From an uncultured Acidobacteriota bacterium (GTDB lineage Bacteria; Acidobacteriota; Blastocatellia; RBC074), in NCBI GenBank assembly GCA_963796275.1, contig CAWCKY010000001.1, positions 96,001 through 160,000 on the forward strand: DNA of 64,000 nucleotides. Direction: 5' to 3'. The notes below the pieces were generated by a model. The model ran no database searches. It was given only the letters and a program-made list of their open reading frames with translations, and was not told the DNA's origin. Positions 14,762-55,457 of this stretch are shown one piece after another (the first letter of the stretch is position 1; each line of letters opens with the position of its first letter). A program made the translations under genes and the position numbers.

Positions 14762-14768
14762 CACATAA

Positions 14769-14929: not shown

Positions 14930-14937
14930 GGTCAAAT

Positions 14938-15117
14938 TGTTCTGCGCCAAAGTGTAGAGCGTGCTAAGGCGATGTTGCGTGCTCCCGATGGGCGAGTATT
15001 GGACGTGGCCGTGGCCTGTGGCTTCAAGACCCAGCAGCACTTTGCGCAGGTCTTCCGTGATGTCTGTGGAGTTAGCGCGACCAAGTACCCGCCAGGATTT
15101 CTGCTCCGAAGTGACTA
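14938..15117 (+). pseudogene. AraC-family regulator C-terminal HTH fragment
   Basis: Hand translation: VERAKAMLRAPDGRVLDVAVACGFKTQQHFAQVFRDVCGVS; 5' part missing. Confidence 0.75.
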
Positions 15118-15523
15118 GCGCAAGACAGCACGCAATTCAGCAAGATTCCGACCATCCGAGCAGAAACTCGCCCAGTTCCGTATCCGATGTGTGGTTTACT
15201 CACAGTTGTGAGCATATCTACGACGTCAGAGAAAGTGGTGAGCGAAAGGAACCGAAGCAGGTTTCTCCTTGCCGCGATTTTGGGGACAGCGAATGTACCC
15301 GTCCCTTTGCGTACTGTCTAAACTGCATAATGAAGAAGTCGAAATTACTAAATTGAGAAGAGCAATGAATCACGCCTAAAGAGAACACGATGCAAGTTAA
15401 GGAAAAGACAATGAGTGTACTTCAAGTCAAGACGGTTCAAAGGCCTTTTACACCGGCACAACAATACATTGATGCAAAACATGGATTAAGCGGCGATATT
15501 TACTGCCGCGACGCGGGGGTAAA

Positions 15524-16564
15524 ATGATCCGCACAAAACTTACCGAGCGTTATGGTATCGAGCTGCCTTTTGTCTCCGCCGGTATGGGCTTCATTGCCAT
15601 ACCACCTTTGGCAGCAGCCGTTTCAAATGCCGGCGGATTGGGTCAGTTGGCCACTGGCGCCGCTCCGCCTGAGATCTTACGCAAGTTGATCAGCTCGACG
15701 CGCGCCCTAACAAGCCGCCCCTTTGCTGTCAACTTCATCATTGAAACTACAGCCTTCGGTCCGCTGGCCACCGACGCCCATCTTAGAGTGTGCATCGAGG
15801 AGCGTGTACCGGCAGTCGTGTTCCACTGGGCTCCGCCACCGGTTGAGTGGGTCCGAATGCTGAAAGAAGCGGCATGCGACGTATGGCTGCAGACGAGTTC
15901 GATTGCAACCGCGCAGGCAGCCACCGCCTCCGGCGTCGATATCATCATTGCTCAAGGTAGTGAAGCGGGCGGACACAATAGGAGTACGACAGGTCTATTC
16001 ACCCTGTTGCCACGGATGGTAGATGCTGTGAATCCCGCGCCGGTAATCGCGGCCGGCGGAATCGCCGATGGCAGAGGTATGGCCGCGGCCTTGTGCTTAG
16101 GCGCTGCCGGAGTATGTGTCGGAACACGGCTGGTAGCGACTGTCGAATCAAACGCACACGATGAATACAAGCGCCGGATTACGGAGGCTACAGAGGAGGA
16201 TATTGCGAGGACTTGCATTTTCGGTCCCGAGTGGCCGAACGCTCCGATGCGCGTGATACGCAACCGGGTAGTACGTGAGTGGGCAGGCAACGACGCGCAG
16301 ACGCCGCCACAGCCCGATCCTCCGCAGACCATCGGGAAAACGATACTTGGCGGCCGAGAATATTTGATGCCAAAGTTTGCTGCCATCCTTCCGACTCCGG
16401 AAACGACTGGTGACTTTGAAGAAATGTGCCTGGCCGCAGGCGAAAGCGCAGCGCTCGTGAACACAATCGGCTCGGCACCGGCCATTGTGCAGACGATAGC
16501 GAAAGAAGCGGAGCAGATTCTGGAACAGCAAAGGACAGCGGTCGCTTCGATGCATCCAAAGTGA
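15524..16564 (+). CDS. Nitronate monooxygenase / FabK-like flavin oxidoreductase
   Basis: AAVSNAGGLG, AQGSEAGGH, PVIAAGGIADGRG, GTRLVATVES. Confidence 0.92.
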   Translation: MIRTKLTERYGIELPFVSAGMGFIAIPPLAAAVSNAGGLGQLATGAAPPEILRKLISSTRALTSRPFAVNFIIETTAFGPLATDAHLRVCIEERVPAVVFHWAPPPVEWVRMLKEAACDVWLQTSSIATAQAATASGVDIIIAQGSEAGGHNRSTTGLFTLLPRMVDAVNPAPVIAAGGIADGRGMAAALCLGAAGVCVGTRLVATVESNAHDEYKRRITEATEEDIARTCIFGPEWPNAPMRVIRNRVVREWAGNDAQTPPQPDPPQTIGKTILGGREYLMPKFAAILPTPETTGDFEEMCLAAGESAALVNTIGSAPAIVQTIAKEAEQILEQQRTAVASMHPK

Positions 16565-16715
16565 TTTGCTGCAGATATAGTAGTAGCTTGGATAGCCATC
16601 AAAGCTCCTCATCGGAGCTCGTTCGCTTTTCTGACACATGATTAATGCCGACTAAAATGGTGCCGGCTTCAGGACGGATCCTAACCGCGGCTGGTGCTCC
16701 ATCTAAATTTGGTAT

Positions 16716-17738
16716 ATGGAGAAAGTACAAATGACTGTGATACCTGATCGAGTTATCCAATTGGGCTTGGGATTTTGGGGTTCTAAGACTCTCTTGAGCG
16801 CGATTGAGCTTGGCGTATTTACTATGCTTGCGAATGGACCGATGGATTTGCATAACCTGACGGTCAGTCTCGGGCTACACCCACGAAGTAGCCGAGATTT
16901 CTTCGACGCCCTGGTAGCTCTCGGAATGCTCGAGCGAGAGGACCTGCAGTATCGGAACACACCAGAGACGGATAATTTCCTGGATCGAAACAAACGCACC
17001 TACATCGGCGGCATGCTCGAGATGGCCAACGAGCGGCTCTACGCGTACTGGGGCACGTTGACCGAGGGCCTACGAACAGGACAGCCGCAAAACGAAACGA
17101 AGACCGGCGCTCCCGGTCTGTTCGAAAACCTCTACGGAGACCCCGAACGGTTGAGGCTTTTCCTGGGGGCAATGACAGGTCTTAGCGCCGGGGCAGCCAG
17201 AGCCATCGCCGAAAAATTTCCCTGGCGGAATTACAAGACAGTCGTTGATGTTGGCGGGGCTCAGGGTGGCCTGCTGGTCCAGGTGGCGTTGGCCCACGAG
17301 CACCTCAAAGGCACGAACTTCGACCTTGAAGTCGTTGGGCCAGTGTTTTCCGAATACGTTGCAAAACATGGCCTAAGCCAACGGCTCTCGTTTTCGCCCG
17401 GCAACTTCTTTGAAGACCCGTTGCCTGAGGCTGATGTGATTACCATGGGTCATATTCTCCACGACTGGGATATTGATCAAAAGGGCATGTTGCTGCAAAA
17501 GGCTTATGAGGCCCTACCGAGTGGAGGCGCTTTAATTGTCTTCGAAGCGCTGATCGATGACGAGCGGCGGACGAATGCGTTTGGTTTGTTGATGAGCCTG
17601 AACATGTTGATTGAGACGCCCGGAGGCTTTGATTTCACCGGCAGAGATTGCAGCGGCTGGATGAAAGAAGTGGGCTTCACGAGCACCAGAGTTGAGCATT
17701 TGATTGGCCCGGATTCGATGGTCGTGGGTATCAAATAG
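16716..17738 (+). CDS. SAM-dependent O-methyltransferase (dimerisation + Methyltransf_2)
   Basis: [26 protein letters not shown]. Confidence 0.92.
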
Positions 17739-42800: not shown

Positions 42801-43510
42801 GCCTTACGAACCGTATCTAAATCTGATACGTATCCAACTCAAACTTGAATTGAATCAACAACTTGGCACTTGGGGTCGACGAAGCTTTTGGAGTAGTACG
42901 TAAATCCCACACGCCGGAATACGTAATAAAAACTGGCCTATATACCGAACTTACGGGATATACGCGGACAACCCTGCCCGCATATGCTGGGATTCTCCCA
43001 ACAAAAGATAAGGGAAATCTTTTGACGGATCACGGCTATGAAGGGTAGGTCTTTGTCGGCTCCGTAATTCAAGACCTCGCGGCAGTGTGAATCCATTTAT
43101 TCCGCCCTAGTCTTCCATTCCCTGCTCTGCAAGATTCAAGCCCGGCGGTAACCCCATTAAGAACTGGATGAACCGCGACAAAGGTTGAGGATGAGACGCA
43201 TGAGCAAACTACTGGTGATCCCATTCAGAGACAAGTATCACGCTTTTGAAGTCCTTAATGATTTACAGCGGCGTGCGCGGAGACCTCGAGAAGGCAGCCG
43301 CAGCGGCGTTCGCCCTCGAATAGACGCCTGGCGACTGTCGAGCAGCGCGGCGGCCATGGGACGCCAAGGCTATTTTCGGATTCGAGGAAAAGATGTTTTG
43401 GTGTCCTATGTGACTGCCGGTAATGGAGCGATGAACATTATTCGCAGCGGTAGCTAGATTATCGGTTAATACTTACGCTGGTGAACGCGTTTGTGAGAGG
43501 AGGTTATGTT

Positions 43511-44383
43511 ATGGACCTGGCAACACTGATACCGCTCGTTCTGAAAACGAGCATCGTTCTGACAGTTTTTGGTCTCGCGCTTAACGCTACCATTGATGAC
43601 GCTTTGTATCTGTTCCGGCGGCGGTCGGAACTCGTCAGGTCGCTGGTCTCGATGAATGTCGTCATGCCGGTCTTCGCGGCCGCGCTTGCGGTCGCCTTCA
43701 ATCTTCACCCGGCAGTGGAGATTGCCCTCATCACTCTGGCCGTATCGCCTGTCCCACCCATCCTTCCGAAGAAAGAGCTCAAGGCGGGCGGACACGCCTC
43801 CTATGCGATCGGACTTCTTATCGCGGCTGCAGTACTCGCGATCGTCTTCGTGCCCGTAGGAGTGGAGCTACTCGGAAGAGTATTAGGCAGGTCCATGCAC
43901 ATGTCGGTCTCCAACATCGCTCAACTCGTTTTATTAACCGTGCTCCTGCCTCTCGCCGCCGGCATAGCGGTGCGCAATTTTGCGCCCCGATTGGCTGACC
44001 GGATAGCGAGGCCTATATCGCTGGTGGCGGCGGTGCTGCTCATCGCCAGCGCACTTCCCCTCGTGTTTACCGCGTGGCCGGCAATCACCTCTCTGATCGG
44101 CAACGGGACAATCATTGCGATTGCGGCGTTTGTCATCATTGGGTTAACAGCCGGCCATCTGCTCGGAGGGCCAGAGGAGGATGATCGAACCGTCCTCGCG
44201 CTCTCCACCGCGTCGCGGCATCCTGGCATAGCAATGGCGATCGCGAGCGCCAACTTCCCGGGACAAAAGCTCGTCTTCGGTGCGGTGCTTTTATATATGA
44301 TCGTGAACGCCATCGTGTCGCTCCCATACCTTAACTGGCGCAGACGGCATCACGCCGGAATCGCCGGTGCAGTGGGTACATAA
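43511..44383 (+). CDS. Bile acid:Na+ symporter family transporter
   Basis: Multi-TM; SMNVVMP, SPVPP, STASRHPGIA. Confidence 0.85.
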   Translation: MDLATLIPLVLKTSIVLTVFGLALNATIDDALYLFRRRSELVRSLVSMNVVMPVFAAALAVAFNLHPAVEIALITLAVSPVPPILPKKELKAGGHASYAIGLLIAAAVLAIVFVPVGVELLGRVLGRSMHMSVSNIAQLVLLTVLLPLAAGIAVRNFAPRLADRIARPISLVAAVLLIASALPLVFTAWPAITSLIGNGTIIAIAAFVIIGLTAGHLLGGPEEDDRTVLALSTASRHPGIAMAIASANFPGQKLVFGAVLLYMIVNAIVSLPYLNWRRRHHAGIAGAVGT

Positions 44384-44444
44384 GAGGCGTCGCGTTGATG
44401 AAGTTAGAAAGGTTCGTCAAGTCACGAGTTACTGTGGAAATGCC

Positions 44445-44897
44445 ATGAACCCAAATCAAACGACAAGTGAACACAAGGTGAAGCCGAGCGTTCTTCCTCA
44501 GATAGGGGACCATTACTCTTGGCTGCGCACGCGCCTGAGCGTCGAGCGAACGCTCATGTCCTGGGTGCGAACGGCCGCGGCCTTCATCGGGTTCGGCTTC
44601 ACTATCTTCCAGTTCTTTGAACGGCTCAACCAGATGCCGGGCGTCGACCCGCCGGTCAGTCCAATCACCCCTCGCCTTGTTAGCCTGTCGCTCATCGCGA
44701 TCGGCACTTTCGCCTTGTTGGTGGCGATCAAAGAATACAAGAATTTAGTGCGTTACTTGTGGAGTGATGAATTCAAGGACATCGCCGGGATAGGGGACCG
44801 CGCGAGTTGGACTCCCTTGGGTATGATAGCCATCATGCTGGCAATAGTTGGACTAGGAATATTCGGAACCATCTTGCTGCGAACGATCTCATCGTAG
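44445..44897 (+). CDS. YidH/DUF202 membrane protein
   Basis: RTRLSVERTLMSWVRTA. Confidence 0.88.
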   Translation: MNPNQTTSEHKVKPSVLPQIGDHYSWLRTRLSVERTLMSWVRTAAAFIGFGFTIFQFFERLNQMPGVDPPVSPITPRLVSLSLIAIGTFALLVAIKEYKNLVRYLWSDEFKDIAGIGDRASWTPLGMIAIMLAIVGLGIFGTILLRTISS

Positions 44898-45192
44898 CGC
44901 GAGCTTAAGGGCAAACGGCCAATCAGCTGGAACCGAAATGGCTCGACATCCTGTGACATTATCAAGGAACGTAATAGCCCAAGATAAAGGAACAATATGA
45001 ACGCTGCCGTCAATATCAAGGCTGCAAAACTGAAGTCCAAAAGGGCATCAATCCTCATCTCCTCCGACTGATCCACCATTCGAGACGATGGTCTGGATAC
45101 TGGGCGGCACTTTCTTATGGATTCGAACAAACACTACCCGGAACTAAATTACCGCCTTACCTGATTTCCCAGTTCGTGATCGAGGTCTGACC

Positions 45193-45597
45193 ATGGAAGC
45201 TCTTAGTATTGAAGATATCTTTAAAAACTTCGCTAGCTACGTCGCACTGGCTATGGAGATCATCGCGGTAGTGATCATCGCAATCGGCGCCGTTGAGTCT
45301 GTCATCAAATTGATGCGGCCTAATTACGATCAGCTCAGACCATTCGCCTGGAAGAAGGAGATATTTATCCGATTAGGTTCGTGGCTCCTGCTTGGACTTG
45401 AGTTTGCGCTGGCGGCCGACATCGTGCGGACTGCTATCTCGCCGACATGGGCACAGCTCGGACAACTGGCCACGATCGCCGCCATCAGGACATTTCTGAA
45501 CTTCTTCCTGGAGAGAGACGTGGAGAAGTTTTCAGAGAATGGGACAGTTGCGGAAGAGGCTGCGATAGCCAGGCGCGCACTCGAAGCGAAGGCATAA
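45193..45597 (+). CDS. DUF1622 membrane protein
   Basis: LLLGLEFALAADIVRT, IAAIRTFLNFFL. Confidence 0.9.
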   Translation: MEALSIEDIFKNFASYVALAMEIIAVVIIAIGAVESVIKLMRPNYDQLRPFAWKKEIFIRLGSWLLLGLEFALAADIVRTAISPTWAQLGQLATIAAIRTFLNFFLERDVEKFSENGTVAEEAAIARRALEAKA

Positions 45598-46207
45598 CCG
45601 AGAACAAGTTGATAGCTAGAGGCTTTTCAATGAATTCAACGAAGATTGAAGAGATCGAGGACAAACATATCAACCATTTGCACTTGTCCGAACATATTGA
45701 GAGAAATTGACGGGGAGAAGATAACTTGTCAGGGACGGTTCGCATTGATTACTCGGAAGGATCCTAGGCTCCTGCCAATCCCACAATAACTCCAAAAAGA
45801 CACCACCCCACGATCCGCCATTCGATGGCCGGGCCGAGTTGTGTTTACCCGGGATCGACTCTACCACCATGATCCATTGCGCCAGCGGATCGACAGGGTT
45901 TTCGACTTCTCATTTCATCCATAATACCTAATGCTGGGCATGAAGCTTAAACAATGCTTTCTCAGAGGCTTGAGAGCTGGATAGAGGAGTAATGGAGCAT
46001 AATTTCGTTAAAAATAGAGAGCTAATAGAGGACATCTCAAGAATCTCGAAGATAGTATTCAGCCGTGAATAAGCCGAGGCAGCAGTCAAGTCTCGTCTTC
46101 GGTCTCATTCAATACACCAACGGATGAACAGAAGCTTATTCAATGGAAAAAGCTACTGGTTGCCGATGCAATTACAACTCTGGATTTGATTTTATAAGGA
46201 GAGTCTC

Positions 46208-47170
46208 ATGACAAAGGATATGAGGATCGATGCGATCGTGACATCGACTGGTAATGTAATTGATATGTTTGTGGAGGGCGCGCCTATTCTCAGATCGGAT
46301 CAGGACGAATCACTGGTCAGTGACTCGGTCGATTTGGGCTACGAAGATATGGAGGAAGTGATCGCCCCATATATCTCTTTCAACCATAACGAAGTTATCA
46401 TCAGTGACGAGGTTGATTTGGAAGCTGAGGAGTTGGAGGACGTGATCGCTCCCCTTATCAGTTTCAACCATAACGAAACTATCGTCTGCGACGAGGTTGA
46501 GTTGGACGCTGAGGAGCTGGAGGACGTGATCGCCCCGTATGTCTCTTTGAACCATAACGAAACTATGGTCTGCGACGAGATTGAATTGGACACTGAGGAG
46601 CTGGAGGACGTGATCGCTCCATTTATCACTCTCAACCATAACGAATCTATGGTCTGCGACGAGGTTGAGTTGGACGCCGAGGAGCTGGAGGACGTGATCG
46701 CTCCCGTTATCTCTTTCAACCATAACGAAACTATGGTCTGCGATGAGGTTGAATTGGACACTGAGGAGCTGGAGGATGTGATCGCCCCGTATATCTCTGT
46801 CAACCATAACGAGGTTATCGTCAGTGACGAGATTGAATTGGACGCTGAGGAACTGGAGGACGTGATCGCTCCGCATATCTCCGTCAACCACAACGAAGTT
46901 ATGGTCTCCGACGAGATTGAATTGGACGCAGAGGAGCTGGAGAACGTGATCGCTCCATTTATCACTTTCAACCATAATGAAACGATTGTCTGCGATGAGG
47001 TTGAATTGGACGCAGAGGAGCTGGAGGACGTAATCGCTCCCTATATCACTTACAACCATAACGAATCTATGGTCTGCGACGAGGTTGATTTGAACGCCGA
47101 GGAGCTTGAAGATCTGATCGCGCCCATGACCATGGATTACCAGGGGTCGCCAGTGATCACTTATAGCTAG
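46208..47170 (+). CDS. Multi-cassette acidic repeat protein, putative multi-core peptide precursor (9 x XXXX-NHNE cores)
   Basis: AAGGAG RBS at 46196-46201; 28-aa period; invariant NHNE and IAP with synonymous codon variation; first gene of an operon with a TPR protein and an M50-HlyD fusion. Confidence 0.85.
   Translation: MTKDMRIDAIVTSTGNVIDMFVEGAPILRSDQDESLVSDSVDLGYEDMEEVIAPYISFNHNEVIISDEVDLEAEELEDVIAPLISFNHNETIVCDEVELDAEELEDVIAPYVSLNHNETMVCDEIELDTEELEDVIAPFITLNHNESMVCDEVELDAEELEDVIAPVISFNHNETMVCDEVELDTEELEDVIAPYISVNHNEVIVSDEIELDAEELEDVIAPHISVNHNEVMVSDEIELDAEELENVIAPFITFNHNETIVCDEVELDAEELEDVIAPYITYNHNESMVCDEVDLNAEELEDLIAPMTMDYQGSPVITYS
46370..47125 (+). repeat. Nine tandem 84-bp coding repeats (plus a degenerate in-register unit at 46286-46369)
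   Basis: Exact 84-bp period with no indels. Confidence 0.95.
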
Positions 47171-47182
47171 CCCGGGCCTAAC

Positions 47183-48082
47183 ATGCAGAATTTCAGAAGG
47201 CATGTGGCGACAGATCCACCGAAGGCACAGGAATCTCTGCAAGTGCAGATTCGCGCTATTTGCGGCACGGCCGAAGCTTGGCGCATCGAGGGGCGTTACA
47301 GCGAGGCCGAGCCGCTCTACCGATGGGCGCTGGAGCTGGCGGAACAGAATTTTGGCCATGATCACCCGGAAGTCGCGATTATCAGCAACAATCTGGCCGT
47401 GCTCTGTAAATACACAGGTAAGTTCGATGAAGCTGAACGACTCTATCGGCGCGCATTCGCTTTGATGGAGCAAACGATGGGAACGGATGCCCGCCATATC
47501 GCCACGCTCTATCACAACCTCGGCGGATTGGAACACGCGCGTGGCCGATTCGCCGCCGGTGAACTTGCGGCACGCCGCTCTGTCGAGATTCGTGAACGCG
47601 CCCTCGGTCCTGATCATCTCTATGTAGCTGCCGATATCGCCGCACTGGCGGCCATTCTGGATGGGCAGGGGAAATATGCCGAATCAGAGCCGCTCTATCG
47701 AAGAGCATTGGCGATCTTTGAGCGAGAGTTAGGTCCTGAACATTACGAGATCGCCGTCAACCTCAACAATCTGGCCGCGCTTAAACAATCGCAGGGCTAC
47801 CAGCAGGAAGCTGAACGACTCTATCGCCGGGCTCTTCTGATAAAAGAAAAATTGCTGGGATCGAATCATCCGGACGTGGCGATGACGCTAAACAACCTGG
47901 CCGTCCTCTGCAAAACGCAATGCCGGTATGTCGAAGCGGAAGCCATGTACCGGCGCGCCCTGGCTATCTTCACGCAATCGTTAGGACCTGAGCATCCGAA
48001 GGTCGTGACCTGCCGCCGAAACTATGCGGGCCTGATGCTAAAGATGAGGCGGCAGAATTCTCAACTGAGTAGCGATCAATGA
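47183..48082 (+). CDS. Tetratricopeptide repeat protein (42-aa kinesin-light-chain-like repeats)
   Basis: About six NNLA...G.Y.EAE.LYRRAL...LG..HP repeats; 12 bp after the precursor stop. Confidence 0.92.
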   Translation: MQNFRRHVATDPPKAQESLQVQIRAICGTAEAWRIEGRYSEAEPLYRWALELAEQNFGHDHPEVAIISNNLAVLCKYTGKFDEAERLYRRAFALMEQTMGTDARHIATLYHNLGGLEHARGRFAAGELAARRSVEIRERALGPDHLYVAADIAALAAILDGQGKYAESEPLYRRALAIFERELGPEHYEIAVNLNNLAALKQSQGYQQEAERLYRRALLIKEKLLGSNHPDVAMTLNNLAVLCKTQCRYVEAEAMYRRALAIFTQSLGPEHPKVVTCRRNYAGLMLKMRRQNSQLSSDQ

Positions 48083-50688
48083 AGACCGATTACTGCGCCT
48101 ACCCGCCACTGATCGCCCCTGACGTGGAAATCTCGGAACAACACGAAGGCGACTGCACGGCTTTCATCGTCGGCTCCGCCTCGACAAGCCGTTATCTGTT
48201 GATACGTGACGCGGAATATCGAGTGCTGCAGATGCTCGGCGAAGGGCGCGCCCCCGCGGAAATCTGCCGGCAATTCAAACAGAGGTACGGCGGGACGCTT
48301 GCGCTCGCAACCCTCACGAAGTTTCTCTCCCGGCTCGATGATTACGGCATTCTCGCAGGCGATCGCGCAGCTGGACGTCAATCGCCGGGACAGCAGTTGA
48401 GCACGCAGTTTTACCTGCGCTTCAGCCTGTTCAACCCCGATCCGCTCTTCACGCGCGTGGTCGGTGTGTTGCGCTGGGTGTGGACGGCCCAGTTCTTTGC
48501 CGGCTCCCTCCTTCTGATGCTGATCGCGGCGGCATTGGCATTGATCAACCGAACCGAAGTCGCACAATACGGCAGTTACATTCTGCGTGAACATTATCTC
48601 GCGGTTATCTTAGCCGGATTACTGGTGGGTGTAACTCACGAATTCGCGCATGGGCTGACGTGCAAGGCTTTCGGCGGGCGGGCGACCGAAGTCGGCGGCT
48701 TGTTGATCTATTACTGCCTGCCGGCGCTCTACTGCAATGTTTCAGGTCTCCACCTGATCCCGCATCGCAGCCGGAGACTGTGGGTGATCGCCGCGGGGGT
48801 CTATTGGCAGCTTCTGGTCGGAACATTCGCGCTGCTGGCATGGTTGATGCTCGCACCATTTACGATCTTCTCGGACCTCGCCTTCATCTTCTTATGCGGC
48901 AGCGTGCTGAATGTCGCTTTCAACGGAAACCCGCTGATCAAGCTCGACGGATATTACTTCCTGAGTCAGTGGCTGCGAATGCCGAATCTCATGGATCGCG
49001 GACGCGCCTGGTGGCGCGATCTTTTGCGATCCATTTTTTTCGGTGCTCCGAGTGAGGATGAAAAACGTTACAGCCGGCGCGAGCAGGCGATTCTTGCGTC
49101 ATTCAGTTCGCTCTCGTTTACTTACACGCTGGGTCTGCGAGTGTTCATAGTGATCTTCGTCGGTTCATATCTGACTGACTGGTTTCACCTGCCGGGATTG
49201 TTGCTCACTGCCGTCCTGGCTCTCACCTATATGCGGCGGCCGTTCGAGGAGTTGATGACCGCGGCGGTCTCCGCTTTGCGGCCACTCGGTGCAAATTTCA
49301 ATCAGTTTTGGAAAGCAAAAATGTCAACTCAGAAGCAAACTTCAACGATCGATCCGGGACAGAACGAAAGCCCTGCGCGCCGGCTTCGGCGCAGGCTCAT
49401 ACCGCTGGCGATCGCCTCGTTACTTACCTTGATCTTCTGTCTCCCCTGGAACGCCTCGGTCGGTGCTAACGGCGTCCTCGTCGCCATTCCGGGACAGGAG
49501 ACGATTATTCGCGCCCCGGAGAGCGCGATACTATCCGAACTGCGCGTGCGCCCGGGCGACCTGACGGAGGAGGGCGCGGTCCTGGGCCGGATGAGCAACG
49601 TCGAACTCGATGAGCAGCTGGCGCACGTACAGATAGAGCTCGATCGGGCGATTACCGAATATGAGCGTTATATCGGGGAATTGCGGCTCCGCGAGGAATC
49701 GATTACTCGGGCCGAAGTGAACCTGCGGCAGCGCCAGAGAGATTACGAAGAGAGTGATTCCGAGAGGCGACAGATCGAAGAGAGGCGGCGCGCCGAGCCG
49801 GACCGGGCGAAGTATCTGGTTGCATATGGCGGTTCGTTCTCGTTACCTGCCGCCGATCATCAAATGGAAAACAGTGTCTCGACTTATCCGGCAGCCATCG
49901 CAGTCTTGCACTCGGATGCGGAGATGCGCCACGCGAGATTGGCAGAGGCCAGTCTCCAGCGCGACCGGACACGGATGCTTTATGCACAGGGCATCGCGCC
50001 GCGGAGCGAGCTGGATGGAGCTGAAACACGAGCTTCGACTCTGGCCATCGAACTCACAGCGGCGCGCCAGCGGCTCGATTCCGCTCTGGTCGAACACCGG
50101 CATCGCCATCTCGGTCTGACGACCGAATTGCTGCGGGCGCGCTCGGACGTTACGTCTGAGCGATTACAGACCGGGAATCTCCATAACCTGGTCCGAGCAG
50201 CGAGCGATCTCATCTCCACTCTCACCGCTCGCCGTGACCTGTTACGGGGCAGGCTGGCGCAGCTTTCACTCGTAACGCCGCGTGCCGGCGCTGTATTCGG
50301 TGAAGAGTTACCGCGTATGGTCGGACAATATTTCCCCAAAGGCTCGGAAATCTGCCGCGTGGCCGAAACGCGGCAACTGCTGGCGCGCATTCAGGTATCC
50401 GAGCGTGAGATCGGAGACATTCGCCCGGGCAATCCGGTCCGGCTCAAGGTGCGGGCGCACCCCGACCGCGTCTTTCGTGGCAGCGTCGCCAAGATCGGCA
50501 GCGAAAGCGAACTCGATCCGGGCGGGCAGGTAATCTATCGGGTGGAATTGATCATTGAAAATACGGACGATCTTTTGCGATCCGGAATGACCGCATTCGC
50601 TCGCGTCGATTTTGACCGCCGGATGATCGGGGGCATCCTGATCTACAAACTGAAGCAGGCACTGCGACCTGAATTATGGATGTTGTAA
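48079..50688 (+). CDS. PqqD/RRE-like + M50 site-2 zinc metalloprotease + HlyD membrane-fusion protein
   Basis: THEFAH (HExxH) and NGNPLIKLDGY motifs in the TM region; N-terminal winged-helix-like segment; IIRAP...LRVRPGD, coiled coil, VSEREIGDIRPG...LRSGMTAFARV; ATGA overlap with the TPR gene. Confidence 0.88.
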   Translation: MKTDYCAYPPLIAPDVEISEQHEGDCTAFIVGSASTSRYLLIRDAEYRVLQMLGEGRAPAEICRQFKQRYGGTLALATLTKFLSRLDDYGILAGDRAAGRQSPGQQLSTQFYLRFSLFNPDPLFTRVVGVLRWVWTAQFFAGSLLLMLIAAALALINRTEVAQYGSYILREHYLAVILAGLLVGVTHEFAHGLTCKAFGGRATEVGGLLIYYCLPALYCNVSGLHLIPHRSRRLWVIAAGVYWQLLVGTFALLAWLMLAPFTIFSDLAFIFLCGSVLNVAFNGNPLIKLDGYYFLSQWLRMPNLMDRGRAWWRDLLRSIFFGAPSEDEKRYSRREQAILASFSSLSFTYTLGLRVFIVIFVGSYLTDWFHLPGLLLTAVLALTYMRRPFEELMTAAVSALRPLGANFNQFWKAKMSTQKQTSTIDPGQNESPARRLRRRLIPLAIASLLTLIFCLPWNASVGANGVLVAIPGQETIIRAPESAILSELRVRPGDLTEEGAVLGRMSNVELDEQLAHVQIELDRAITEYERYIGELRLREESITRAEVNLRQRQRDYEESDSERRQIEERRRAEPDRAKYLVAYGGSFSLPAADHQMENSVSTYPAAIAVLHSDAEMRHARLAEASLQRDRTRMLYAQGIAPRSELDGAETRASTLAIELTAARQRLDSALVEHRHRHLGLTTELLRARSDVTSERLQTGNLHNLVRAASDLISTLTARRDLLRGRLAQLSLVTPRAGAVFGEELPRMVGQYFPKGSEICRVAETRQLLARIQVSEREIGDIRPGNPVRLKVRAHPDRVFRGSVAKIGSESELDPGGQVIYRVELIIENTDDLLRSGMTAFARVDFDRRMIGGILIYKLKQALRPELWML

Positions 50689-50699
50689 AGGTCGAAATA

Positions 50700-51095
50700 T
50701 CATTGTTTTACGAGAGGCGAGATGTAGAGGCGTTCCTGTATGACCTCATACACCGCAGGCACTAGCTCTCGGCTAGCGGCCAGCTTAAAGACATAGCCCT
50801 TTGCTCCCGCGGAAATTCCTTCTTCTAACATACTCCGATCGTTATGCATGGTGAGTAATATGATCTTCGCCTCGAAGTCTTCCTCGACTATTCTCATGGT
50901 CGCTTCGATGCCGCTCATTTCGGGCATATTGATGTCGGCTATGATTACGTCAGGTTTGAAATTCTTGACCGCTTGGAGCAAATCTCGCCCGTTCTGGACT
51001 ATTGCTACAACTTCGAACTCTGGCTGCAGTACATCCTTGATGAGGCTAAGCATCTCCGCGTGGTCATCGGCCACTACTATTCTGATTTTACTCAT
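50700..51095 (-). CDS. Stand-alone NarL-type response regulator receiver
   Basis: IVVADDH, IIADINMP, LTMH, GYVFK; no HTH. Confidence 0.88.
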   Translation of the reverse strand: MSKIRIVVADDHAEMLSLIKDVLQPEFEVVAIVQNGRDLLQAVKNFKPDVIIADINMPEMSGIEATMRIVEEDFEAKIILLTMHNDRSMLEEGISAGAKGYVFKLAASRELVPAVYEVIQERLYISPLVKQ

Positions 51096-51194
51096 TGGGA
51101 CCATCCGAAGTAGGTGGAATCCTTGCATCTGCCATTTGACATAAAATCTTGCAGGCAATGCACTATGCCATCCTCGACCGGGTATCCGATGTCA

Positions 51195-51480
51195 CTCACC
51201 TATGCTCTTGCTCCGATCCCATACCAGGCTGGCAATTAACATCATCAGTTCGGCAGGTTCGACTGGCTTGGTAACATGCATGTGGAAGCCTGCACTGAGT
51301 GCGCGCAACTAACCTTCTACTCGCCATCGCCGTGAGTGTTATCGTCGGCGTCTGCTACGACATCTTGACTCTTCGCTCTGCCTCGAGTCTCCTAACACTT
51401 TTCATCATCTCGCAACCATCTTTACCCAGCACATATGAGCACATCAAGTTGTTCGCTGCAAGATCGATCCATACTCTATG
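51195..51480 (-). pseudogene. Degraded receiver domain of a hybrid kinase
   Basis: TLTAMAS, AGFHMHVTKPVEPAEL fragments with stops and frameshifts. Confidence 0.5.
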
Positions 51481-52079
51481 CCTTCACTCGCCGCCTCGAT
51501 CGTGCCGCCTTGCAATTCGCCCAGATACTTTGCCACCGCTGCGTATAGAGCATGCGCATAGCAACTGCCACATCTGAAGACTTCTACCATTCCTATCGCG
51601 TGTGATATTATGAATTTGGGGAAAATTAAATCTTAATTGCGAGCAGTTTTTCTGTCCTATCTCAAGGCTATTTTGACCTTGCTGGTCCAGTTTTAGTCTG
51701 CGTATTACGGTCAGATATCATTCCTTTATTTAGGACACTTTTCTCGATCTTTTCCCTTTTTCCAATAGATAACTTCATCGGGAGCGATCTTAATGCTCTT
51801 GCCCATTAGGAGTAAGTTTAGATAAAAACCCAGCGCCTACTTCGTGTGGAGGGTGTTCATTGTTGTATGTAATTGGATTGATACCCTAGAGGCATGCTTA
51901 ACCTCGTGGAAGAAGTGATTATAACAACGGCTTCATTCAATCAGCATAGCATCATTGGATTTACCCCTCCTCCCGGTTCAGATAAAGGCAAGCGCCAGCC
52001 AGTGTGACTGACGTTCGCTACATTGTTGGACCTGCTCATGCGCTTAGATTAGGCATTACCTCACAGAAAGGACCCTCTG

Positions 52080-55000
52080 ATGACCCACTCAATTTTGGAG
52101 GCGAATCCGGGAGATTTGAGGAATTTGCAAATCAAGATAGAGAGTCGTTTCGGCGTTCTACCGAACTTCTTCCGGCTGGCTCCTAAAAGCCCGGAGGTCA
52201 CGGCGAACCTCTGGGAGTTTGCGCAGTTCGCTTACCTGGATAATCCACTTCCATCGCTATTCAAGGAACGGTTATTCGTCTATCTCTCTCGCTTTTGCAA
52301 AGCGCGCTATAGCGTCGCGCGGCACGTCGGCTTCCTAGTCGGGCTGGGGCATCCCTCAGGCGACAACCAGTGTCCGATCCAGACCATCGAAGAAATCATG
52401 CGACTTCTCCGGCGTCCGTTCCCACGGGCCGAGCGCCTGAAACCGCACGTTTCTGGTCTCGCCGCCCGTAAGGCACCTCTGGCTAAATTGCCGAAGCCTG
52501 ATTCCGCCCTTGAAGAGACTATCTTTGCGTGCGCCGCTCATGTCTTCTTGCAGACACCAGACGCGCCCCGATGCCTCGACGCGATCAATCGCGCCTTTGG
52601 CGAATCGCGGTTCGAATACCTGATGACGTTTCTCGCATTCGTCCATACCGCCCATTACTGGACCTCGGTTCATACGGAATTGGAAGTTGAAGAGGACATC
52701 CAGCGGCTTTTGGCGACCTACGAAGCACTAGCCGAATGTCTGCTGAACGACCCGGAGTCCGGGACTTGTGAAATCAGTCAGAAGCTGCTCGACGAGTTGG
52801 CGTCACTGCGGGAGACCAGGGAGCGCCACAATGAATTATTGCAAGCGCATCAGACAGTACGCGAGAGCGAGGTGCAGGGCCGACGAACCAATGCGGAACT
52901 CGCCGGGCGTGTGGCTGAACTTCAAGAGCTCACTGTTGAACTACAGAATGCGCGCCGAGCCGCGCTCAATCTGATGGAAGACGCGATCCAGGCGAAAGCT
53001 GCGTTGGCGGAGTCCGAGGAGCGTTATCGCTCGCTGGTCTCTGTCATCACTGACGTCTCCTGGACGACCGATGTGGCAGGCCGGTTCGCCACGCCGCAGC
53101 CCGCGTGGACGGCTTACACAGGTCAGATCTGGAATGAATTGCGGGACTTCGGCTGGGTCGACGCCCTGCATCCCGAAGACCGAGAGAACGTCGGGGTCAC
53201 ATGGCTGCACGCCGTCAAATCACGATCCCTTTACAAATCACATGGACGGCTCTGGCACGCGCCGAGCCAGCAGTACCGCTACTTCGAGGCGCGGGCGACG
53301 CCGTTGTTCGACCCCGACGGCGGCGTGCGAGAATGGGTCGGCTCCTGCACGGATATTCACGACCGCAAAATGGCCGAAACGGCGTTGAGTGAAAGCGAGG
53401 AACGGTATCGGCGCCTGCTGGACAAACTGCCGGTTGGGGCCTATACCTGCGATGCCGATGGATCGATAACATATTTCAATCAGCGTGCGGTCGAAGTGTG
53501 GGGGCGCACCCCGAAATTGAATGACCCCGTGGAACGTTTCTGCGGCTCATATAGGCTTTATTCGCCTGACGGAGCGCTGATTCCCCACGATCGATGTTGG
53601 ATGGCGGTCGCGATTAAGGAGAAAAAGGTATACGAGGGACATGAGATCGTGATCGAGCGTCCGGACGGCTCCCGGCTGACAGTCCTGGTCCATGTCAACC
53701 CGTTTTACAATGAGGCTGGGAAATTGCTCGGAGCGATTAACATATTGGTGGACATCACCGACCGCAAGCGAGCCGAAGCAGCGATGGCTCAAATGGCGGC
53801 CATCGTCGAATCGTCAGATGACGCCATCATTAGCAAGGATTTGAATGGAATCATTGCGAGCTGGAACAAAGGTGCGGAAAAGCTGTTTGGTTACACGGCG
53901 GCGGAAGTCATCGGCAAACCGGTGACAATTCTTATTCCTCAGGATCGGGTGGACGAAGAGCCGCGAATTCTCGAACGGCTCACGCGCGGCGAGCAGGTTG
54001 ATCAGTACGAAACCGTGCGACGGCGCAAAGATGATAGCGAGGTTGACATTTCGCTGACGATCTCACCCATTAGAGACAAGACAGGAAAAGTTATCGCCGC
54101 GTCGAAAATTGCGCGCGACATCACCGAACGCAAGCGCAGCGAGATCGAAAGAGAAGAACTGTTGCTCAAGGAATCGGCGGCCCGCGCCGAGGCGGAAGCC
54201 GCAAATCGCAGTAAAGATGAATTCCTGGCCGTCGTCTCGCATGAGTTACGCTCGCCCCTGGGCGCGATCCTCGGTTACAACAGTATGCTGCGCGAGAAAC
54301 CGTCCGACAAGACGCAACTGAATTCATACTGCGACATCATTGAGCGCAACGCCAAAACGCAACTGCAATTGATCGAAGACCTGCTCGATACTGCCCGCAT
54401 CGTCAGCGGCAAGCTGCGGCTGGAATTGCGCCCCCTGGACATCACCCCCCTGCTCGCCGACGCGCTCGATGTGGTGCGCCCGGCGATAGAGGTCAAAGGT
54501 GTCAAATTGCGGATTCGGGAGGGCGGAGTAGAGAATGAAAATGGCGCGACGCGGGAAGAACCCGCAATCTTGTTGGGTGATGCCGCCCGGTTACAGCAGA
54601 TCATCTGGAACCTGCTCTCGAATGCGATTAAGTTCACGCCCGCCGGCGGGTTTGTCGAATTGCGTGCCGAACGCGGCGAAGGACATATCCGCATCATCGT
54701 CAGCGACACCGGCAAAGGCATACAGCCGGAAGTCCTGCCTCATGTATTCGACCGCTTCCGACAGGCCGATTCATCAAGCTCGCGGCGGTACGACGGCCTT
54801 GGTCTGGGTCTCGCGCTGGTGAAGGACTTGGTCGAACTGCATGGCGGTAAGGTCGAGGCGGCGAGCGAAGGCGCAGGACGTGGCTCGAGGTTCACCGTCA
54901 CACTGCCGTTGGCGGCACCAAGCGAATTGGGCGCTGTGGAGCCTAAGGCCCTGGCATTGGCCGTTGGCGCAAATGGCGAGGCGCAGATCCGAGGCGGGAT

Positions 55001-55457
55001 CCCATTGCCTGATGGGGTAACGATCGCGGGCTTGCGCGTGCTGATGGTAGATGATCAGGAAGAGGCGCGCGTCATGGTCGCCGATTTTCTGAGCCGGTAC
55101 GGCGCCGTCGTGACGACTGCATCGTCCGGCGCTGAAGCATTGTCGGTTCTCTCGAATATGACGGATGACGCGCGACCGGACGTCCTTGTGTGCGACATCG
55201 CCATGCCAATGGAAGACGGCTACACGGCGCTGCGCCGGTTGCGGGCGCTCGAAGATGCTCGCGGCGTCGCGGCGTCACAGCATATTCCGGCGATTGCGCT
55301 GACTGCGTTGGCAGGGAAGGAAGAGCGGTTGCGCGTGCTGAGCGCGGGCTTCCAATGCCACATCGCCAAGCCGGTTGATCCGGTCGATTTGATAGTAAGA
55401 ATCGCGAACATCGCGGGCCTATGGCGGCGGAAAAGAAATATTAGCCGCGGCAGTTGA
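52080..55457 (+). CDS. Hybrid sensor histidine kinase: AhpD/CMD-like N-domain, 3 PAS, HisKA, HATPase, receiver
   Basis: SHELRSPL, NLLSNAIKFT, DTGKGI, GLGLGL, VCDIAMP. Confidence 0.93.
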   Translation: MTHSILEANPGDLRNLQIKIESRFGVLPNFFRLAPKSPEVTANLWEFAQFAYLDNPLPSLFKERLFVYLSRFCKARYSVARHVGFLVGLGHPSGDNQCPIQTIEEIMRLLRRPFPRAERLKPHVSGLAARKAPLAKLPKPDSALEETIFACAAHVFLQTPDAPRCLDAINRAFGESRFEYLMTFLAFVHTAHYWTSVHTELEVEEDIQRLLATYEALAECLLNDPESGTCEISQKLLDELASLRETRERHNELLQAHQTVRESEVQGRRTNAELAGRVAELQELTVELQNARRAALNLMEDAIQAKAALAESEERYRSLVSVITDVSWTTDVAGRFATPQPAWTAYTGQIWNELRDFGWVDALHPEDRENVGVTWLHAVKSRSLYKSHGRLWHAPSQQYRYFEARATPLFDPDGGVREWVGSCTDIHDRKMAETALSESEERYRRLLDKLPVGAYTCDADGSITYFNQRAVEVWGRTPKLNDPVERFCGSYRLYSPDGALIPHDRCWMAVAIKEKKVYEGHEIVIERPDGSRLTVLVHVNPFYNEAGKLLGAINILVDITDRKRAEAAMAQMAAIVESSDDAIISKDLNGIIASWNKGAEKLFGYTAAEVIGKPVTILIPQDRVDEEPRILERLTRGEQVDQYETVRRRKDDSEVDISLTISPIRDKTGKVIAASKIARDITERKRSEIEREELLLKESAARAEAEAANRSKDEFLAVVSHELRSPLGAILGYNSMLREKPSDKTQLNSYCDIIERNAKTQLQLIEDLLDTARIVSGKLRLELRPLDITPLLADALDVVRPAIEVKGVKLRIREGGVENENGATREEPAILLGDAARLQQIIWNLLSNAIKFTPAGGFVELRAERGEGHIRIIVSDTGKGIQPEVLPHVFDRFRQADSSSSRRYDGLGLGLALVKDLVELHGGKVEAASEGAGRGSRFTVTLPLAAPSELGAVEPKALALAVGANGEAQIRGGIPLPDGVTIAGLRVLMVDDQEEARVMVADFLSRYGAVVTTASSGAEALSVLSNMTDDARPDVLVCDIAMPMEDGYTALRRLRALEDARGVAASQHIPAIALTALAGKEERLRVLSAGFQCHIAKPVDPVDLIVRIANIAGLWRRKRNISRGS

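What the first reader, a model, noticed from the sequence alone, without database searches (positions are those of the whole stretch)
46208..50688. Candidate new multi-core peptide system: 9-cassette NHNE precursor + TPR protein + RRE-M50-HlyD fusion
Seen: three tightly coupled genes (12-bp gap, then ATGA overlap), all intact in a window full of pseudogenes. Gene 1 repeats a 28-aa cassette: an acidic DE(V/I)(E/D)LxxEELEDVIAP, then XXXX-NHNE. Gene 2 is TPR only. Gene 3 has HExxH and NxxPxxxLDG M50 motifs, an N-terminal PqqD-like segment and a C-terminal HlyD adaptor. Established: RREs bind RiPP leaders; M50 membrane proteases process peptide precursors (e.g. YydH of the B. subtilis epipeptide locus); from memory, daptide leaders end in a similar ELExMEAP motif and use an RRE-peptidase fusion. 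Inference: the polyprotein is cut after each IAP to release a family of short NHNE peptides for export. I do not recognise this as a described class.
Basis: partly seen in the sequence, partly recalled or inferred. Interest (0 to 1): 0.92.

Follow-up and report, generated by a model that had tools for sequence, protein, structure and literature searches.

The report
Multi-core short-peptide operon in Acidobacteria
A soil acidobacterium carries a three-gene operon in which one very acidic protein repeats a daptide-like leader and a short variable peptide nine times, next to a peptide-binding-type TPR protein and a leader-recognising membrane protease fused to an export adaptor, which looks like an undescribed way of making families of very short secreted peptides.

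Summary
Window 46208-50688 holds three coupled, intact genes. The first is a 320-aa protein with a 54-aa leader, nine 28-aa cassettes and a short tail. The second is a TPR-only protein. The third is an 869-aa fusion of an RRE-like domain, an M50/site-2 protease and a HlyD adaptor.

The protease half is a full-length homologue of the daptide leader peptidase, but scores below the NCBIfam cut-off. The repeated ELEDVIAP reads in register with the published daptide leader motif ELExMEAP.

Searching with the cassette alone found 40 loci, labelled mostly Blastocatellia. In 24 of them, TPR and RRE-M50(-HlyD) genes follow in the same order. In the window's family, 29 of 34 cassette-positive genomes have the protease. 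No tailoring enzyme or ABC transporter is conserved.

Codon patterns show purifying selection on NHNE and ELE..IAP, and hypervariability at core positions 1 and 4.

Most likely the protease cuts after each AP and short peptides (about 5-9 aa) are exported. Cleavage, the C-terminal end of the products and their function are all untested. Structure and complex predictions could not be obtained.

In relatives, but not here, an ECF sigma / Ser-Thr kinase pair and a conserved upstream element flank the precursors. I rate this a new variant of a known kind.

The parts
46196..46201 (+). AAGGAG ribosome-binding-like box before the precursor gene
   Evidence: Read from the sequence printed; function inferred.
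46208..47170 (+). Multi-core precursor gene: 320 aa, 93 D+E and 3 K+R
   Evidence: ORF; composition. Homologues in metagenomes and genomes. No Pfam or NCBIfam family apart from spurious low-complexity hits.
46208..46369 (+). N-terminal leader, residues 1-54, ending in the first ...EDMEEVIAP site
46370..47125 (+). Nine 84-nt (28-aa) cassettes. Each is a variable tetrapeptide, then NHNE, a spacer, and DE(V/I)ELxxEELEDVIAP.
   Evidence: Differences in NHNE and ELE..IAP are synonymous only; core positions 1 and 4 are hypervariable.
47126..47170 (+). Atypical 14-aa tail after the tenth IAP (MTMDYQGSPVITYS) plus the stop codon
   Evidence: No relative shows this tail among the 60 terminal pieces listed.
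47183..48082 (+). Cytoplasmic TPR_12/TPR_10 protein, 299 aa, with no signal peptide visible
   Evidence: Pfam TPR_12 at 214.8 bits. Nearest solved relatives are kinesin light chain TPR domains, E 2e-42. An orthologue sits between precursor and protease in 24 of 40 loci.
48079..50688 (+). 869-aa fusion: RRE-like domain, M50/site-2 protease, transmembrane anchor and HlyD-type periplasmic adaptor
48079..48378 (+). RRE/PqqD-like N-terminal domain, about residues 1-100
   Evidence: hhalign against PqqD-domain proteins gives 93.3% probability, E 2.8e-7. TbiB1 (5v1u) scores E 0.0014. Pfam PqqD matches 15 of 30 homologues at E<1. The domain is part of the NF041824 match.
48406..49278 (+). M50/site-2 protease membrane core, about residues 110-400. 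HEFAH lies at 48637-48651 and NPLIKLDG at 48928-48951.
   Evidence: NF041824 daptide_HExxH scores E 4.6e-50, 170.8 bits, covering model positions 3-372 of 379. Motif residues are invariant. Hydrophobic segments are listed.
49396..50685 (+). Transmembrane anchor (residues 440-458) and HlyD-type adaptor with a long coiled-coil region (to residue 869)
   Evidence: TIGR01843 type_I_hlyD matches residues 438-849, E 1.8e-17 (below its cut-off). HlyD_D23 and HlyD_3 score above their cut-offs at 728-839. Anchor.

Best explanation
The operon encodes a leader-guided 'cut and export' system for very short ribosomal peptides.

**Proposed mechanism**
1. The 320-aa acidic protein is a multi-core precursor. 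Each of its ten ELE(D)VIAP elements acts as a daptide-type leader.
2. The cytoplasmic RRE-like domain of the 869-aa fusion binds each leader element.
3. The M50/site-2 protease active site (HEFAH, NPLIKLDG) cuts after the Pro. This frees N-termini that begin with the variable tetrapeptide.
4. NHNE plus a few residues belongs to the preceding core, either as part of the product or as a C-terminal recognition/trimming signal. The final products are therefore about 5-9 residues, such as YISFN(HNE..).
5. The fused HlyD-type adaptor passes the peptides towards an outer-membrane channel.
6. The kinesin-light-chain-like TPR protein, which occurs only with NHNE-type precursors, probably holds the long acidic substrate or reads the NHNE element.
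7. No tailoring enzyme is conserved, so the peptides are probably unmodified apart from proteolysis.

**Shown here:** gene structure, selection pattern, homology, linkage and distribution.

**Inferred:** binding, the cleavage site, C-terminal processing, export and biological role.
For: **1. Protease homology.**
- NF041824 (daptide intramembrane metalloprotease) matches residues 12-392 over model positions 3-372 of 379, E 4.6e-50.
- The HExxH and NxxPxxxxDG residues are invariant in 30 homologues.

**2. RRE-like domain.**

**3. Leader similarity.**
- The daptide paper gives ELExMEAP. It numbers Leu(-7), Met(-4) and Pro(-1), and calls Leu(-7) and Met(-4) essential (passages).
- Here the motif is ELEDVIAP with L(-7), V(-4), A(-2) and P(-1).
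- L, A and P show only synonymous differences among the nine cassettes.

**4. Linkage.**
- 24 of 40 cassette-found loci show precursor, TPR and fusion in that order.
- In 87 genomes of the family: both present 29, cassette only 5, protease only 18, neither 35 (my tally at E<=1e-5 and E<=1e-100).
- The 20 cassette-linked proteases form one clade, SH-aLRT 99 (quick tree).

**5. Only three gene clusters are conserved across 41 loci:** precursor, TPR and fusion.

**6. Cassette design across 59 precursor ORFs.**
- 147 of 153 internal cassettes carry (N/Q)HN(E/Q).
- In 112 of those 147 it lies 5 residues after AP.
- Terminal cassettes keep NHNE plus 3-7 residues without a following IAP.

**7. Related fusions (35% identity) sit next to single-core precursors** ending ...EEVVAP followed by 6 residues.

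**8. Precedents.**
- The M50 protease EpeP is thought to both cleave and export its peptide (review PMC10885120, passage).
- The TPR protein's nearest solved relatives are kinesin light chain TPR domains. From my own knowledge, these bind short acidic peptides.
Against: **No direct evidence of expression, cleavage or export.**
- No RNA data were available.
- Structure and complex predictions could not be run.

**Weak family matches.**
- The NF041824 score of 170.8 bits is below the curated cut-off of 300.
- Pfam Peptidase_M50 (14.5 bits) and PqqD (14.6 bits) are both below their gathering scores.

**Linkage is incomplete.**
- 10 of 40 loci have precursors with no fusion nearby.
- 5 of 34 cassette-positive genomes show no orthologous protease. 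One of these is a complete chromosome (G029).
- 18 genomes have the protease but no detectable cassette.

**Gaps in the mechanism.**
- No energising transporter (ABC or other) is linked, so the export route is incomplete.
- No enzyme for the C-terminal cut is identified.
- NHNE is almost invariant, which is unusual for a mere spacer. It could instead mark a modification made by unlinked enzymes.
- The window's last piece (MTMDYQGSPVITYS) fits no cassette.

**Counts across kin are not independent.**
Confidence: 0.6

Rival explanations
1. It is a tailored RiPP. The invariant NHNE(T) is the site of a chemical modification made by enzymes encoded elsewhere in the genome. The operon holds only the precursor, a chaperone-like TPR and the leader peptidase/exporter.
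For: - NHNE is present in 147 of 153 internal cassettes and differs only synonymously within the window. That level of constraint is typical of modified core motifs.
- The protease's nearest named family serves a heavily tailored class, the daptides.
- Two loci carry an FAD oxidoreductase and a methyltransferase-like gene downstream (L044, L061).
- One precursor is fused in frame to a methyltransferase (L069).
Against: - No enzyme family is conserved across the 41 loci.
- The oxidoreductase and methyltransferase-like genes occur in only 2 loci.
- Cores without NHNE occur at the ends of some precursors and in the single-core relatives.
- The residue after NHNE varies: T 103, A 28, V 5, S 5.
Confidence: 0.15
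2. The acidic repeat protein works as a whole protein or as long fragments. It could be an exported metal-binding or matrix protein, or a decoy or regulator that occupies the protease. Short peptides are not the product.
For: - The composition is extreme: 93 acidic residues of 320, with His/Asn/Glu in every repeat.
- If the protease cuts only after AP, the products would be 28-aa acidic peptides.
- One relative has the cassettes fused to a 750-aa secreted protein (L076).
Against: - Many relatives have precursors of only 60-115 aa with 2-4 cassettes, and several genes per locus. This fits peptide libraries better than a structural protein.
- Hypervariability is confined to 2 of the 4 core positions.
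- There is no signal peptide.
- The daptide-type leader motif is repeated before every core.
Confidence: 0.1
3. The M50 domain is a regulatory site-2 protease. It acts in intramembrane proteolysis of a signalling protein, as in anti-sigma factor cleavage, and its adjacency to the repeat protein is incidental.
For: - Site-2 proteases classically act in sigma-factor pathways (established knowledge).
- ECF sigma genes lie next to the precursors in 26 of 40 loci.
Against: - The sigma genes are of the PF07638 type, paired with Ser/Thr kinases rather than anti-sigma factors.
- The protease carries an RRE-like domain and matches the daptide leader peptidase along its full length.
- The order precursor-TPR-protease is conserved, with overlapping or near-touching genes.
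Confidence: 0.04

Closest known systems
Daptide system (precursors MpaA/DapA with the RRE-site-2-protease MpaP/DapP)
   Same: - The protease matches over its full length, RRE-like N-terminus included: NF041824, E 4.6e-50.
- The leader ends in a similar motif in the same register: ELExMEAP against ELEDVIAP, with cleavage expected after Pro(-1) (passages).
   Different: - The score is below the family cut-off (170.8 against 300 bits).
- No DapB/C/D/M-type genes are conserved nearby.
- Cores are repeated up to ten times per gene rather than being single.
- Cores are 4-6 variable residues plus NHNE, not about 20 aliphatic residues ending in an invariant Thr.
- The protease is fused to a HlyD adaptor, and a TPR gene is inserted.
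- The host is a diderm acidobacterium. Per the paper, the described daptide clusters are from Actinomycetota and Bacillota.
Epipeptide system (YydF/EpeX with the M50 protease YydH/EpeP/LiaK)
   Same: An M50 intramembrane protease is thought to both remove the leader and export a short peptide (review PMC10885120, passage).
   Different: - The match to NF058609 is only weak: E 1.8e-8, 34.3 bits against a cut-off of 225.
- There is no radical-SAM epimerase and no ABC transporter in the conserved neighbourhood.
Multi-core precursors with flanking recognition sequences: cyanobactins, plant orbitides, fungal Kex2-processed repeat proteins
   Same: The logic matches: hypervariable short cores, each flanked by a conserved N-terminal cleavage signal and a conserved C-terminal element, and several products from one gene. 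This comparison rests on my own knowledge. The papers appeared only in search listings.
   Different: - The protease family is unrelated: RRE-M50 instead of subtilisin-like, prolyl-oligopeptidase or Kex2 enzymes.
- No macrocyclase is linked.
- Each repeat carries a whole daptide-type leader.
HlyD-type periplasmic adaptors of type I secretion and tripartite efflux systems
   Same: The C-terminal half has the membrane anchor, a long coiled-coil region and a barrel-sandwich domain.
   Different: - It is fused to a protease instead of working beside an ABC, RND or MFS transporter gene.
- No such transporter is linked.
- TIGR01843 scores below its cut-off (63.4 against 208.65 bits).
Short peptide pheromones of Firmicutes cut by the M50 protease Eep and sensed by TPR receptors of the RRNPP family
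   Same: Very short hydrophobic peptides, an M50 protease and a TPR protein are all involved. This resemblance is recalled, not tested.
   Different: - The phylum is different and there is no sequence relationship to RRNPP receptors. The TPR protein here is kinesin-light-chain-like.
- The precursors are acidic repeat proteins, not signal-peptide-derived.

Membership tests
Daptide biosynthesis (NCBIfam NF041824 protease and daptide gene set) | Protease scores above the curated equivalog cut-off (300 bits) | tested here: not met
   170.8 bits, E 4.6e-50, covering model positions 3-372 of 379. It is a homologue, not an equivalog.
Daptide biosynthesis (NCBIfam NF041824 protease and daptide gene set) | Precursor leader carries the ELExMEAP-type motif directly before the core | tested here: met
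   ELEDVIAP or EEVIAP occurs ten times in the window protein. The motif is as quoted in the paper.
Daptide biosynthesis (NCBIfam NF041824 protease and daptide gene set) | [quoted passage not shown] | tested here: not met
   No such genes lie at 43-56 kb of the window. No conserved enzyme cluster appears across 41 loci. I did not search the whole genome with their HMMs.
Daptide biosynthesis (NCBIfam NF041824 protease and daptide gene set) | Core ends in an invariant C-terminal Thr | tested here: not met
   The window protein ends ...VITYS. Relatives end in varied residues.
Peptidase M50 / site-2 protease | HExxH and NxxPxxxxDG motifs within hydrophobic segments | tested here: met
   HEFAH at residue 187 and NPLIKLDG at 284, inside hydrophobic segments. 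The residues are invariant in 30 homologues. The Pfam model itself is below gathering: 14.5 against 27.2 bits.
RiPP recognition element (PqqD-like winged helix) | Profile or fold similarity to PqqD/RRE domains | tested here: met
   hhalign gives 93.3% probability, E 2.8e-7 over 64 columns. TbiB1 scores E 0.0014. Pfam PqqD is below gathering.
RiPP recognition element (PqqD-like winged helix) | Binds the precursor's leader | not testable with these tools
   The complex prediction gave no result.
HlyD / membrane fusion protein | Pfam HlyD domains score above gathering | tested here: met
   HlyD_D23 scores 47.2 bits (cut-off 30) and HlyD_3 scores 45.1 bits (cut-off 22.2) at residues 728-839.
Epipeptide protease YydH/LiaK (NF058609) | Scores above the cut-off (225 bits), with a radical-SAM epimerase neighbour | tested here: not met
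   34.3 bits. No such neighbour is present.
TPR_12 (kinesin-light-chain-like TPR) | Pfam TPR_12 scores above gathering | tested here: met
   214.8 bits against a cut-off of 30.1. Kinesin light chain chains are the best PDB hits.
FxSxx-COOH system TPR protein (NF040586) | Scores above the cut-off (300 bits) | tested here: not met
   133 bits, matching the TPR region only.

The most novel reading that the evidence does not exclude
The cassettes encode a library of roughly pentapeptide signals (YISFN-type).

**Proposed circuit**
- The protease-adaptor fusion releases and exports the peptides.
- In the relatives, the neighbouring transmembrane Ser/Thr kinase senses them through its TPR ectodomain.
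- The kinase activates the adjacent ECF sigma factor.
- The sigma factor drives the precursor genes through the conserved upstream element.

This would be a peptide-pheromone quorum circuit in a Gram-negative soil phylum. The window's operon would be a variant that has lost the local sensor pair.
Probability: 0.15. Interest if true: 0.85.

Novelty: new variant of a known kind. Interest (0 to 1): 0.7.

Why it matters
**Extends the daptide-type leader/RRE-protease pair**
- The pair would reach a new phylum and a new design: a whole leader repeated before each of up to ten tiny cores.
- It would show that a site-2 protease fused to a periplasmic adaptor can stand in for the usual peptidase plus transporter.

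**Reach and novelty**
- RRE-M50 proteins with long C-terminal extensions are common in Acidobacteriota: 60 of 401 sampled genomes.
- 419 clusters at 50% identity match at E<=1e-30 in a 1.8-billion-protein library.
- None of my seven literature searches found a description of this system.

**Practical and biological interest**
- The system is small (three genes) and its variable positions are obvious. That makes it an easy test bed for leader-guided release of short peptides.
- Its link to ECF sigma / kinase pairs in relatives makes a long-open question testable: whether abundant soil Acidobacteria use peptide signals.

Tried and rejected

The one accepted job failed. There was therefore no fold and no fold search.
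- Complex prediction met a full queue, and gave no usable answer. No verdict was obtained.
- No RNA holder was listed for the operon.
- The ESM Atlas gave no usable hit for the precursor.

**Spurious or negative matches**
- I judged the Pfam 'Ovate' match and other matches to gene 1 to be artefacts of the acidic repeats. None has a matching stretch that passes on its own.
- NCBIfam found no family for eight small precursors, apart from low-complexity noise.
- The RRE-M50 profile found no solved M50 structure by sequence.
- Rfam has no family at gathering score for the conserved upstream element.
- The sigma-70 promoter and terminator scan of 45400-51300 gave no more sites than shuffled sequence.
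- A regular-expression scan for ELE..AP-type small ORFs within 1.5 kb of 26 distant fusions found nothing convincing. The rule 'leader ends in AP' is therefore not shown beyond the clades described.

**Ideas dropped**
- NET as an N-glycosylation sequon: the third position is V in 3 of the window's 9 cassettes and A in 28 of 147 overall.
- Intein-like Asn cyclisation at HN|E: I kept this only as an untested speculation.

**Literature**
- Searches found no prior description.
- The TMcin papers (abstracts only) describe a different, Gram-positive system.
- Supplementary files of the daptide papers were not seen. They may list related RRE-peptidase families.

Full report
**Observation**

- 46208-47170 (+), 320 aa
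- 47183-48082 (+), 299 aa
- 48079-50688 (+), 869 aa

The gap between genes 1 and 2 is 12 bp. Genes 2 and 3 overlap by ATGA. An AAGGAG box precedes gene 1.

Gene 1 consists of a 54-aa leader ending EEVIAP, nine exact 28-aa cassettes, and a 14-aa tail after the tenth IAP. Tandem Repeats Finder reports period 84, 9.2 copies and 84% matches. The protein has 93 acidic and 3 basic residues.

The repeat is a constrained coding sequence, not merely repeated DNA. Across the nine cassettes, NHNE, DE, L, EELE and IAP differ only synonymously. For example, the Pro codon shows 26 synonymous and 0 non-synonymous pairwise differences, and Ala shows 20 and 0. Core positions 1 and 4 differ almost only non-synonymously: 0 synonymous / 29 non-synonymous, and 1 / 28.

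**The proteins**

Gene 2 is TPR_12/TPR_10 only. Its nearest solved relatives are kinesin light chain TPR domains, E 2e-42. From my own knowledge, these bind short acidic peptides in their groove.

Gene 3 has three parts.

*Protease core.*
- Residues 12-392 match the NCBIfam model of the daptide intramembrane metalloprotease over nearly its whole length (positions 3-372 of 379), E 4.6e-50. The 170.8 bits are below the 300-bit equivalog cut-off.
- HEFAH (residue 187) and NPLIKLDG (residue 284) lie in hydrophobic segments. Their key residues are invariant in 30 homologues.

*RRE-like domain.* The first ~100 residues are RRE/PqqD-like at profile level.
- Best PDB hit is the lasso-peptide RRE TbiB1, E 0.0014.
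- Pfam PqqD matches 15 of 30 homologues at E<1, always below gathering.
- hhalign against 14 Pfam-defined PqqD proteins from related genomes gives 93.3% probability, E 2.8e-7, over 64 columns.

*Adaptor.* Residues 440-458 form a membrane anchor. The rest is a HlyD-type adaptor, with HlyD_D23 and HlyD_3 above their cut-offs.

A fold-level test could not be made.

**Link to daptides**

The daptide paper was read in passages (bioRxiv 10.1101/2023.03.08.531785, also Nat Commun 2023). It states three relevant things:
- The class was found through RRE domains fused N-terminally to an intramembrane site-2 protease.
- The precursors share the motif ELExMEAP before the core.
- Leu(-7) and Met(-4) are essential for recognition, with Pro at -1.

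The window's ELEDVIAP reads in the same register: L(-7), V(-4), A(-2), P(-1).

The system is nevertheless not a daptide system. No DUF-RRE, decarboxylase, aminotransferase or methyltransferase genes are nearby, and there is no invariant C-terminal Thr.

**Is the cassette linked to the protease?**

I aligned the window protein with 11 homologues (A1). I then used that alignment, without the protease, to scan one genome per prokaryote species. This found 40 loci, nearly all in MAGs labelled Blastocatellia, Blastocatellales or Acidobacteriota.

tblastn with the window's TPR and fusion proteins sorted the 40 loci as follows:
- 24 have TPR plus RRE-M50 directly downstream in the window's order. HlyD is also present in 22 of these; in the other 2 the contig ends first.
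- 6 are cut by a contig end within about 2 kb (L040, L047, L050, L051, L059, L073). Three of them show the TPR gene before the end.
- 10 have at least about 1.4 kb of downstream sequence and no fusion (L046, L049, L057, L062, L066, L067, L069, L074, L076, L077).

Clustering all ORFs of at least 80 aa from the 41 loci left only three conserved clusters: TPR-containing proteins, the fusion and the precursors. No tailoring enzyme and no ABC transporter is conserved.

Counts for the 87 genomes of the window's family are below. This is my tally.

| Feature | Genomes |
|---|---|
| Cassette present (E<=1e-5) | 34 |
| Orthologous protease present (E<=1e-100) | 47 |
| Both | 29 |
| Cassette only | 5 |
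| Protease only | 18 (11 in one genus) |
| Neither | 35 |

Wider sampling and caveats:
- In a phylum-wide sample, the cassette was found in 2 of 401 genomes, both from this family.
- The RRE-M50 profile was found in 60 of 401 genomes.
- These genomes are kin, so the counts are not independent. Several are incomplete.
- The counts include the unpublished genome G004. Those include the unpublished G083 and G202.
- A quick maximum-likelihood tree places all 20 cassette-linked proteases in one clade (SH-aLRT 99). A clade without adjacent cassettes is its sister, and a clade with single-core precursors lies outside both. The careful tree search did not finish.

**What the cassettes say about the product**

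Statistics come from 59 precursor ORFs in 39 loci:
- 147 of 153 internal cassettes carry (N/Q)HN(E/Q).
- In 112 of those 147, the motif lies five residues after AP.
- The first residue after AP is G in 58 cassettes and A in 32.
- The residue after HNE is T in 103 and A in 28.
- ORFs hold 1-10 cassettes, and loci often hold several precursor genes.

Three further observations bear on where the products end.
- Terminal cassettes usually keep NHNE plus 3-7 residues but lack a following IAP. The shortest cassettes run core-NHNE-AELEAEEAEEVIAP. NHNE therefore belongs to the preceding core rather than to the next leader.
- Some precursors end in 4-6 residues without NHNE: GIPLI, GLPLI, GIKVPD, GTIVHD, GVIIHD, GYAIGG.
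- Fusions about 35% identical sit next to single-core precursors ending ...EEVVAP followed by six residues: AVVVTA, GILIVN, GFLLSD.

Taken together, these point to very short products. Whether they end at the Asn, after NHNE(T), or at the next AP cannot be decided here.

**Mechanism proposed**

1. The RRE-like domain binds each ELE..IAP element (inferred).
2. The M50 site cuts after Pro (inferred from the daptide precedent).
3. An unknown step trims the C-terminus.
4. The fused adaptor leads the peptides towards an outer-membrane channel (inferred).

As a precedent, the M50 protease EpeP is thought to both cut and export its peptide (review PMC10885120, passage). The TPR protein occurs with NHNE-type precursors but not with the single-core ones. 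It may therefore hold the long acidic substrate or read NHNE.

The weak points are these:
- No linked energising transporter.
- No identified C-terminal peptidase.
- Orphan precursors, and proteases without cassettes.
- A complete lack of expression or biochemical data.

**Seen in relatives but not in the window**

*Regulatory gene pair.*
- An ECF sigma factor gene (Pfam Sigma70_ECF, E 1.7e-61) lies beside the precursors in 26 of 40 loci. A transmembrane Ser/Thr kinase with TPR repeats lies there in 27 of 40. In most cases they sit directly upstream and divergent.
- The genomic background is 118 such sigma genes in five genomes, about 43.7 Mb in total.
- Three loci instead carry a CHAT-TPR protein.
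- The 64-kb window has none of these at E<=1e-10.

*Conserved upstream element.*
- A non-coding element lies within 300 nt upstream of 29 of 56 precursor ORFs. It has an invariant ATGATAG followed by hairpins with compensatory changes; 8 of 13 predicted pairs change on both sides.
- It also precedes 12 other genes.
- It has no Rfam family.
- It was not found in the window's own genome, while three relatives have 8-11 copies each.

ECF43-type sigma factors are reported to be activated by Hanks-type kinases (FEBS J 2026, PMC13147305; search listing and start of the abstract only). This supports a signalling reading for the relatives, but it says nothing direct about this window.

**Novelty**

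Seven literature searches found no description of NHNE cassettes or of an RRE-M50-HlyD peptide system. NCBIfam and Pfam have no model for the precursors.

The fusion as a protein family is common in databases and generically named:
- A search with residues 1-420 gave 8802 hits at E<=1e-3 and 419 at E<=1e-30.
- Most of the best 150 hits are 700-950 aa.
- IMG names them 'putative peptide zinc metalloprotease protein'.

I file this as a new variant of a known kind, namely leader/RRE-guided peptide maturation with daptides as the nearest class. It is not a member of the daptide class.

Noticed in passing
L042:4362-7769(-), L046:1983-7181(-), L054:6985-7569(-) and 14074-16746(-); none in window 1-64000: An ECF sigma factor (Pfam PF07638) and a Ser/Thr kinase-TM-TPR gene pair lies beside the precursors, mostly divergent and directly upstream. 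The sigma gene is present in 26 of 40 cassette loci and the kinase in 27 of 40. The background is 118 such sigma genes in about 43.7 Mb. The window operon lacks the pair.
   Followed up: partly
e.g. L045:1812-1937(+), L065:7915-8041(+), L052:7842-7969(+): A conserved non-coding element has a T-run, an invariant ATGATAG and then hairpins with compensatory changes. It lies upstream of 29 of 56 precursor ORFs and of 12 other genes. It has no Rfam family. There are 8-11 copies in each of three relatives' genomes and none in the window's genome. It may be a promoter plus 5' leader of the sigma factor's regulon.
   Followed up: partly
L060:4173-7433(-), L059 (two copies), L039:2102-2740: CHAT (caspase-like) protease domains occur next to cassettes in the window's closest subclade (CHAT with TPR_12 repeats confirmed by Pfam in L060 only), in place of the sigma/kinase pair.
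   Followed up: no
L033:6467-6655(+), L034:6489-6749(+): More distant RRE-M50-HlyD fusions (about 33% identity) sit after small ORFs with ...LELE(L/Q)LEQRIAP followed by GG and long SK or GSKS low-complexity tails. A 344-396-aa gene lies between them, which I did not identify.
   Followed up: no
L069:8073-9131(+), L076:7770-10418(+): One precursor is fused in frame to a methyltransferase-like domain. Another is fused to a ~750-aa protein that starts with a signal-peptide-like segment. These could be real fusions or assembly or decay artefacts.
   Followed up: no
L030:525-1136(+): A 203-aa gene lies between a single-core precursor (...EEVVAP followed by GILIVN) and its fusion protease. It looked acetyltransferase-like to me by eye. 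I did not test it.
   Followed up: no
L046 (complete 9.5-Mb chromosome record), 7965-11667: Two sigma/kinase-precursor modules sit side by side. One has a fragmented kinase and sigma gene. The genome shows no fused protease at E<=1e-40. Precursors therefore persist without the protease.
   Followed up: partly
L041, L042, L048, L063, L065, L072 and others: MAG records labelled Heliomicrobium/Heliobacteriaceae, Acidimicrobiia or Actinomycetota carry proteases nested inside the Blastocatellia clade. The labels or the binning look doubtful.
   Followed up: no
window 1-31000: Few long ORFs occur here. ORFs of at least 100 aa cover about 59-77% of each 8-kb block, and most are under 360 aa.
   Followed up: no
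window 43481-45597 and 50700-55457: The operon's neighbours are unrelated to it. Upstream are a 300-aa membrane protein and DUF202 and DUF1622 proteins. Downstream are a convergent response-regulator receiver protein and a 1125-aa ORF that I did not scan against any family library; its translation looked to me, by eye, like a sensor kinase.
   Followed up: partly
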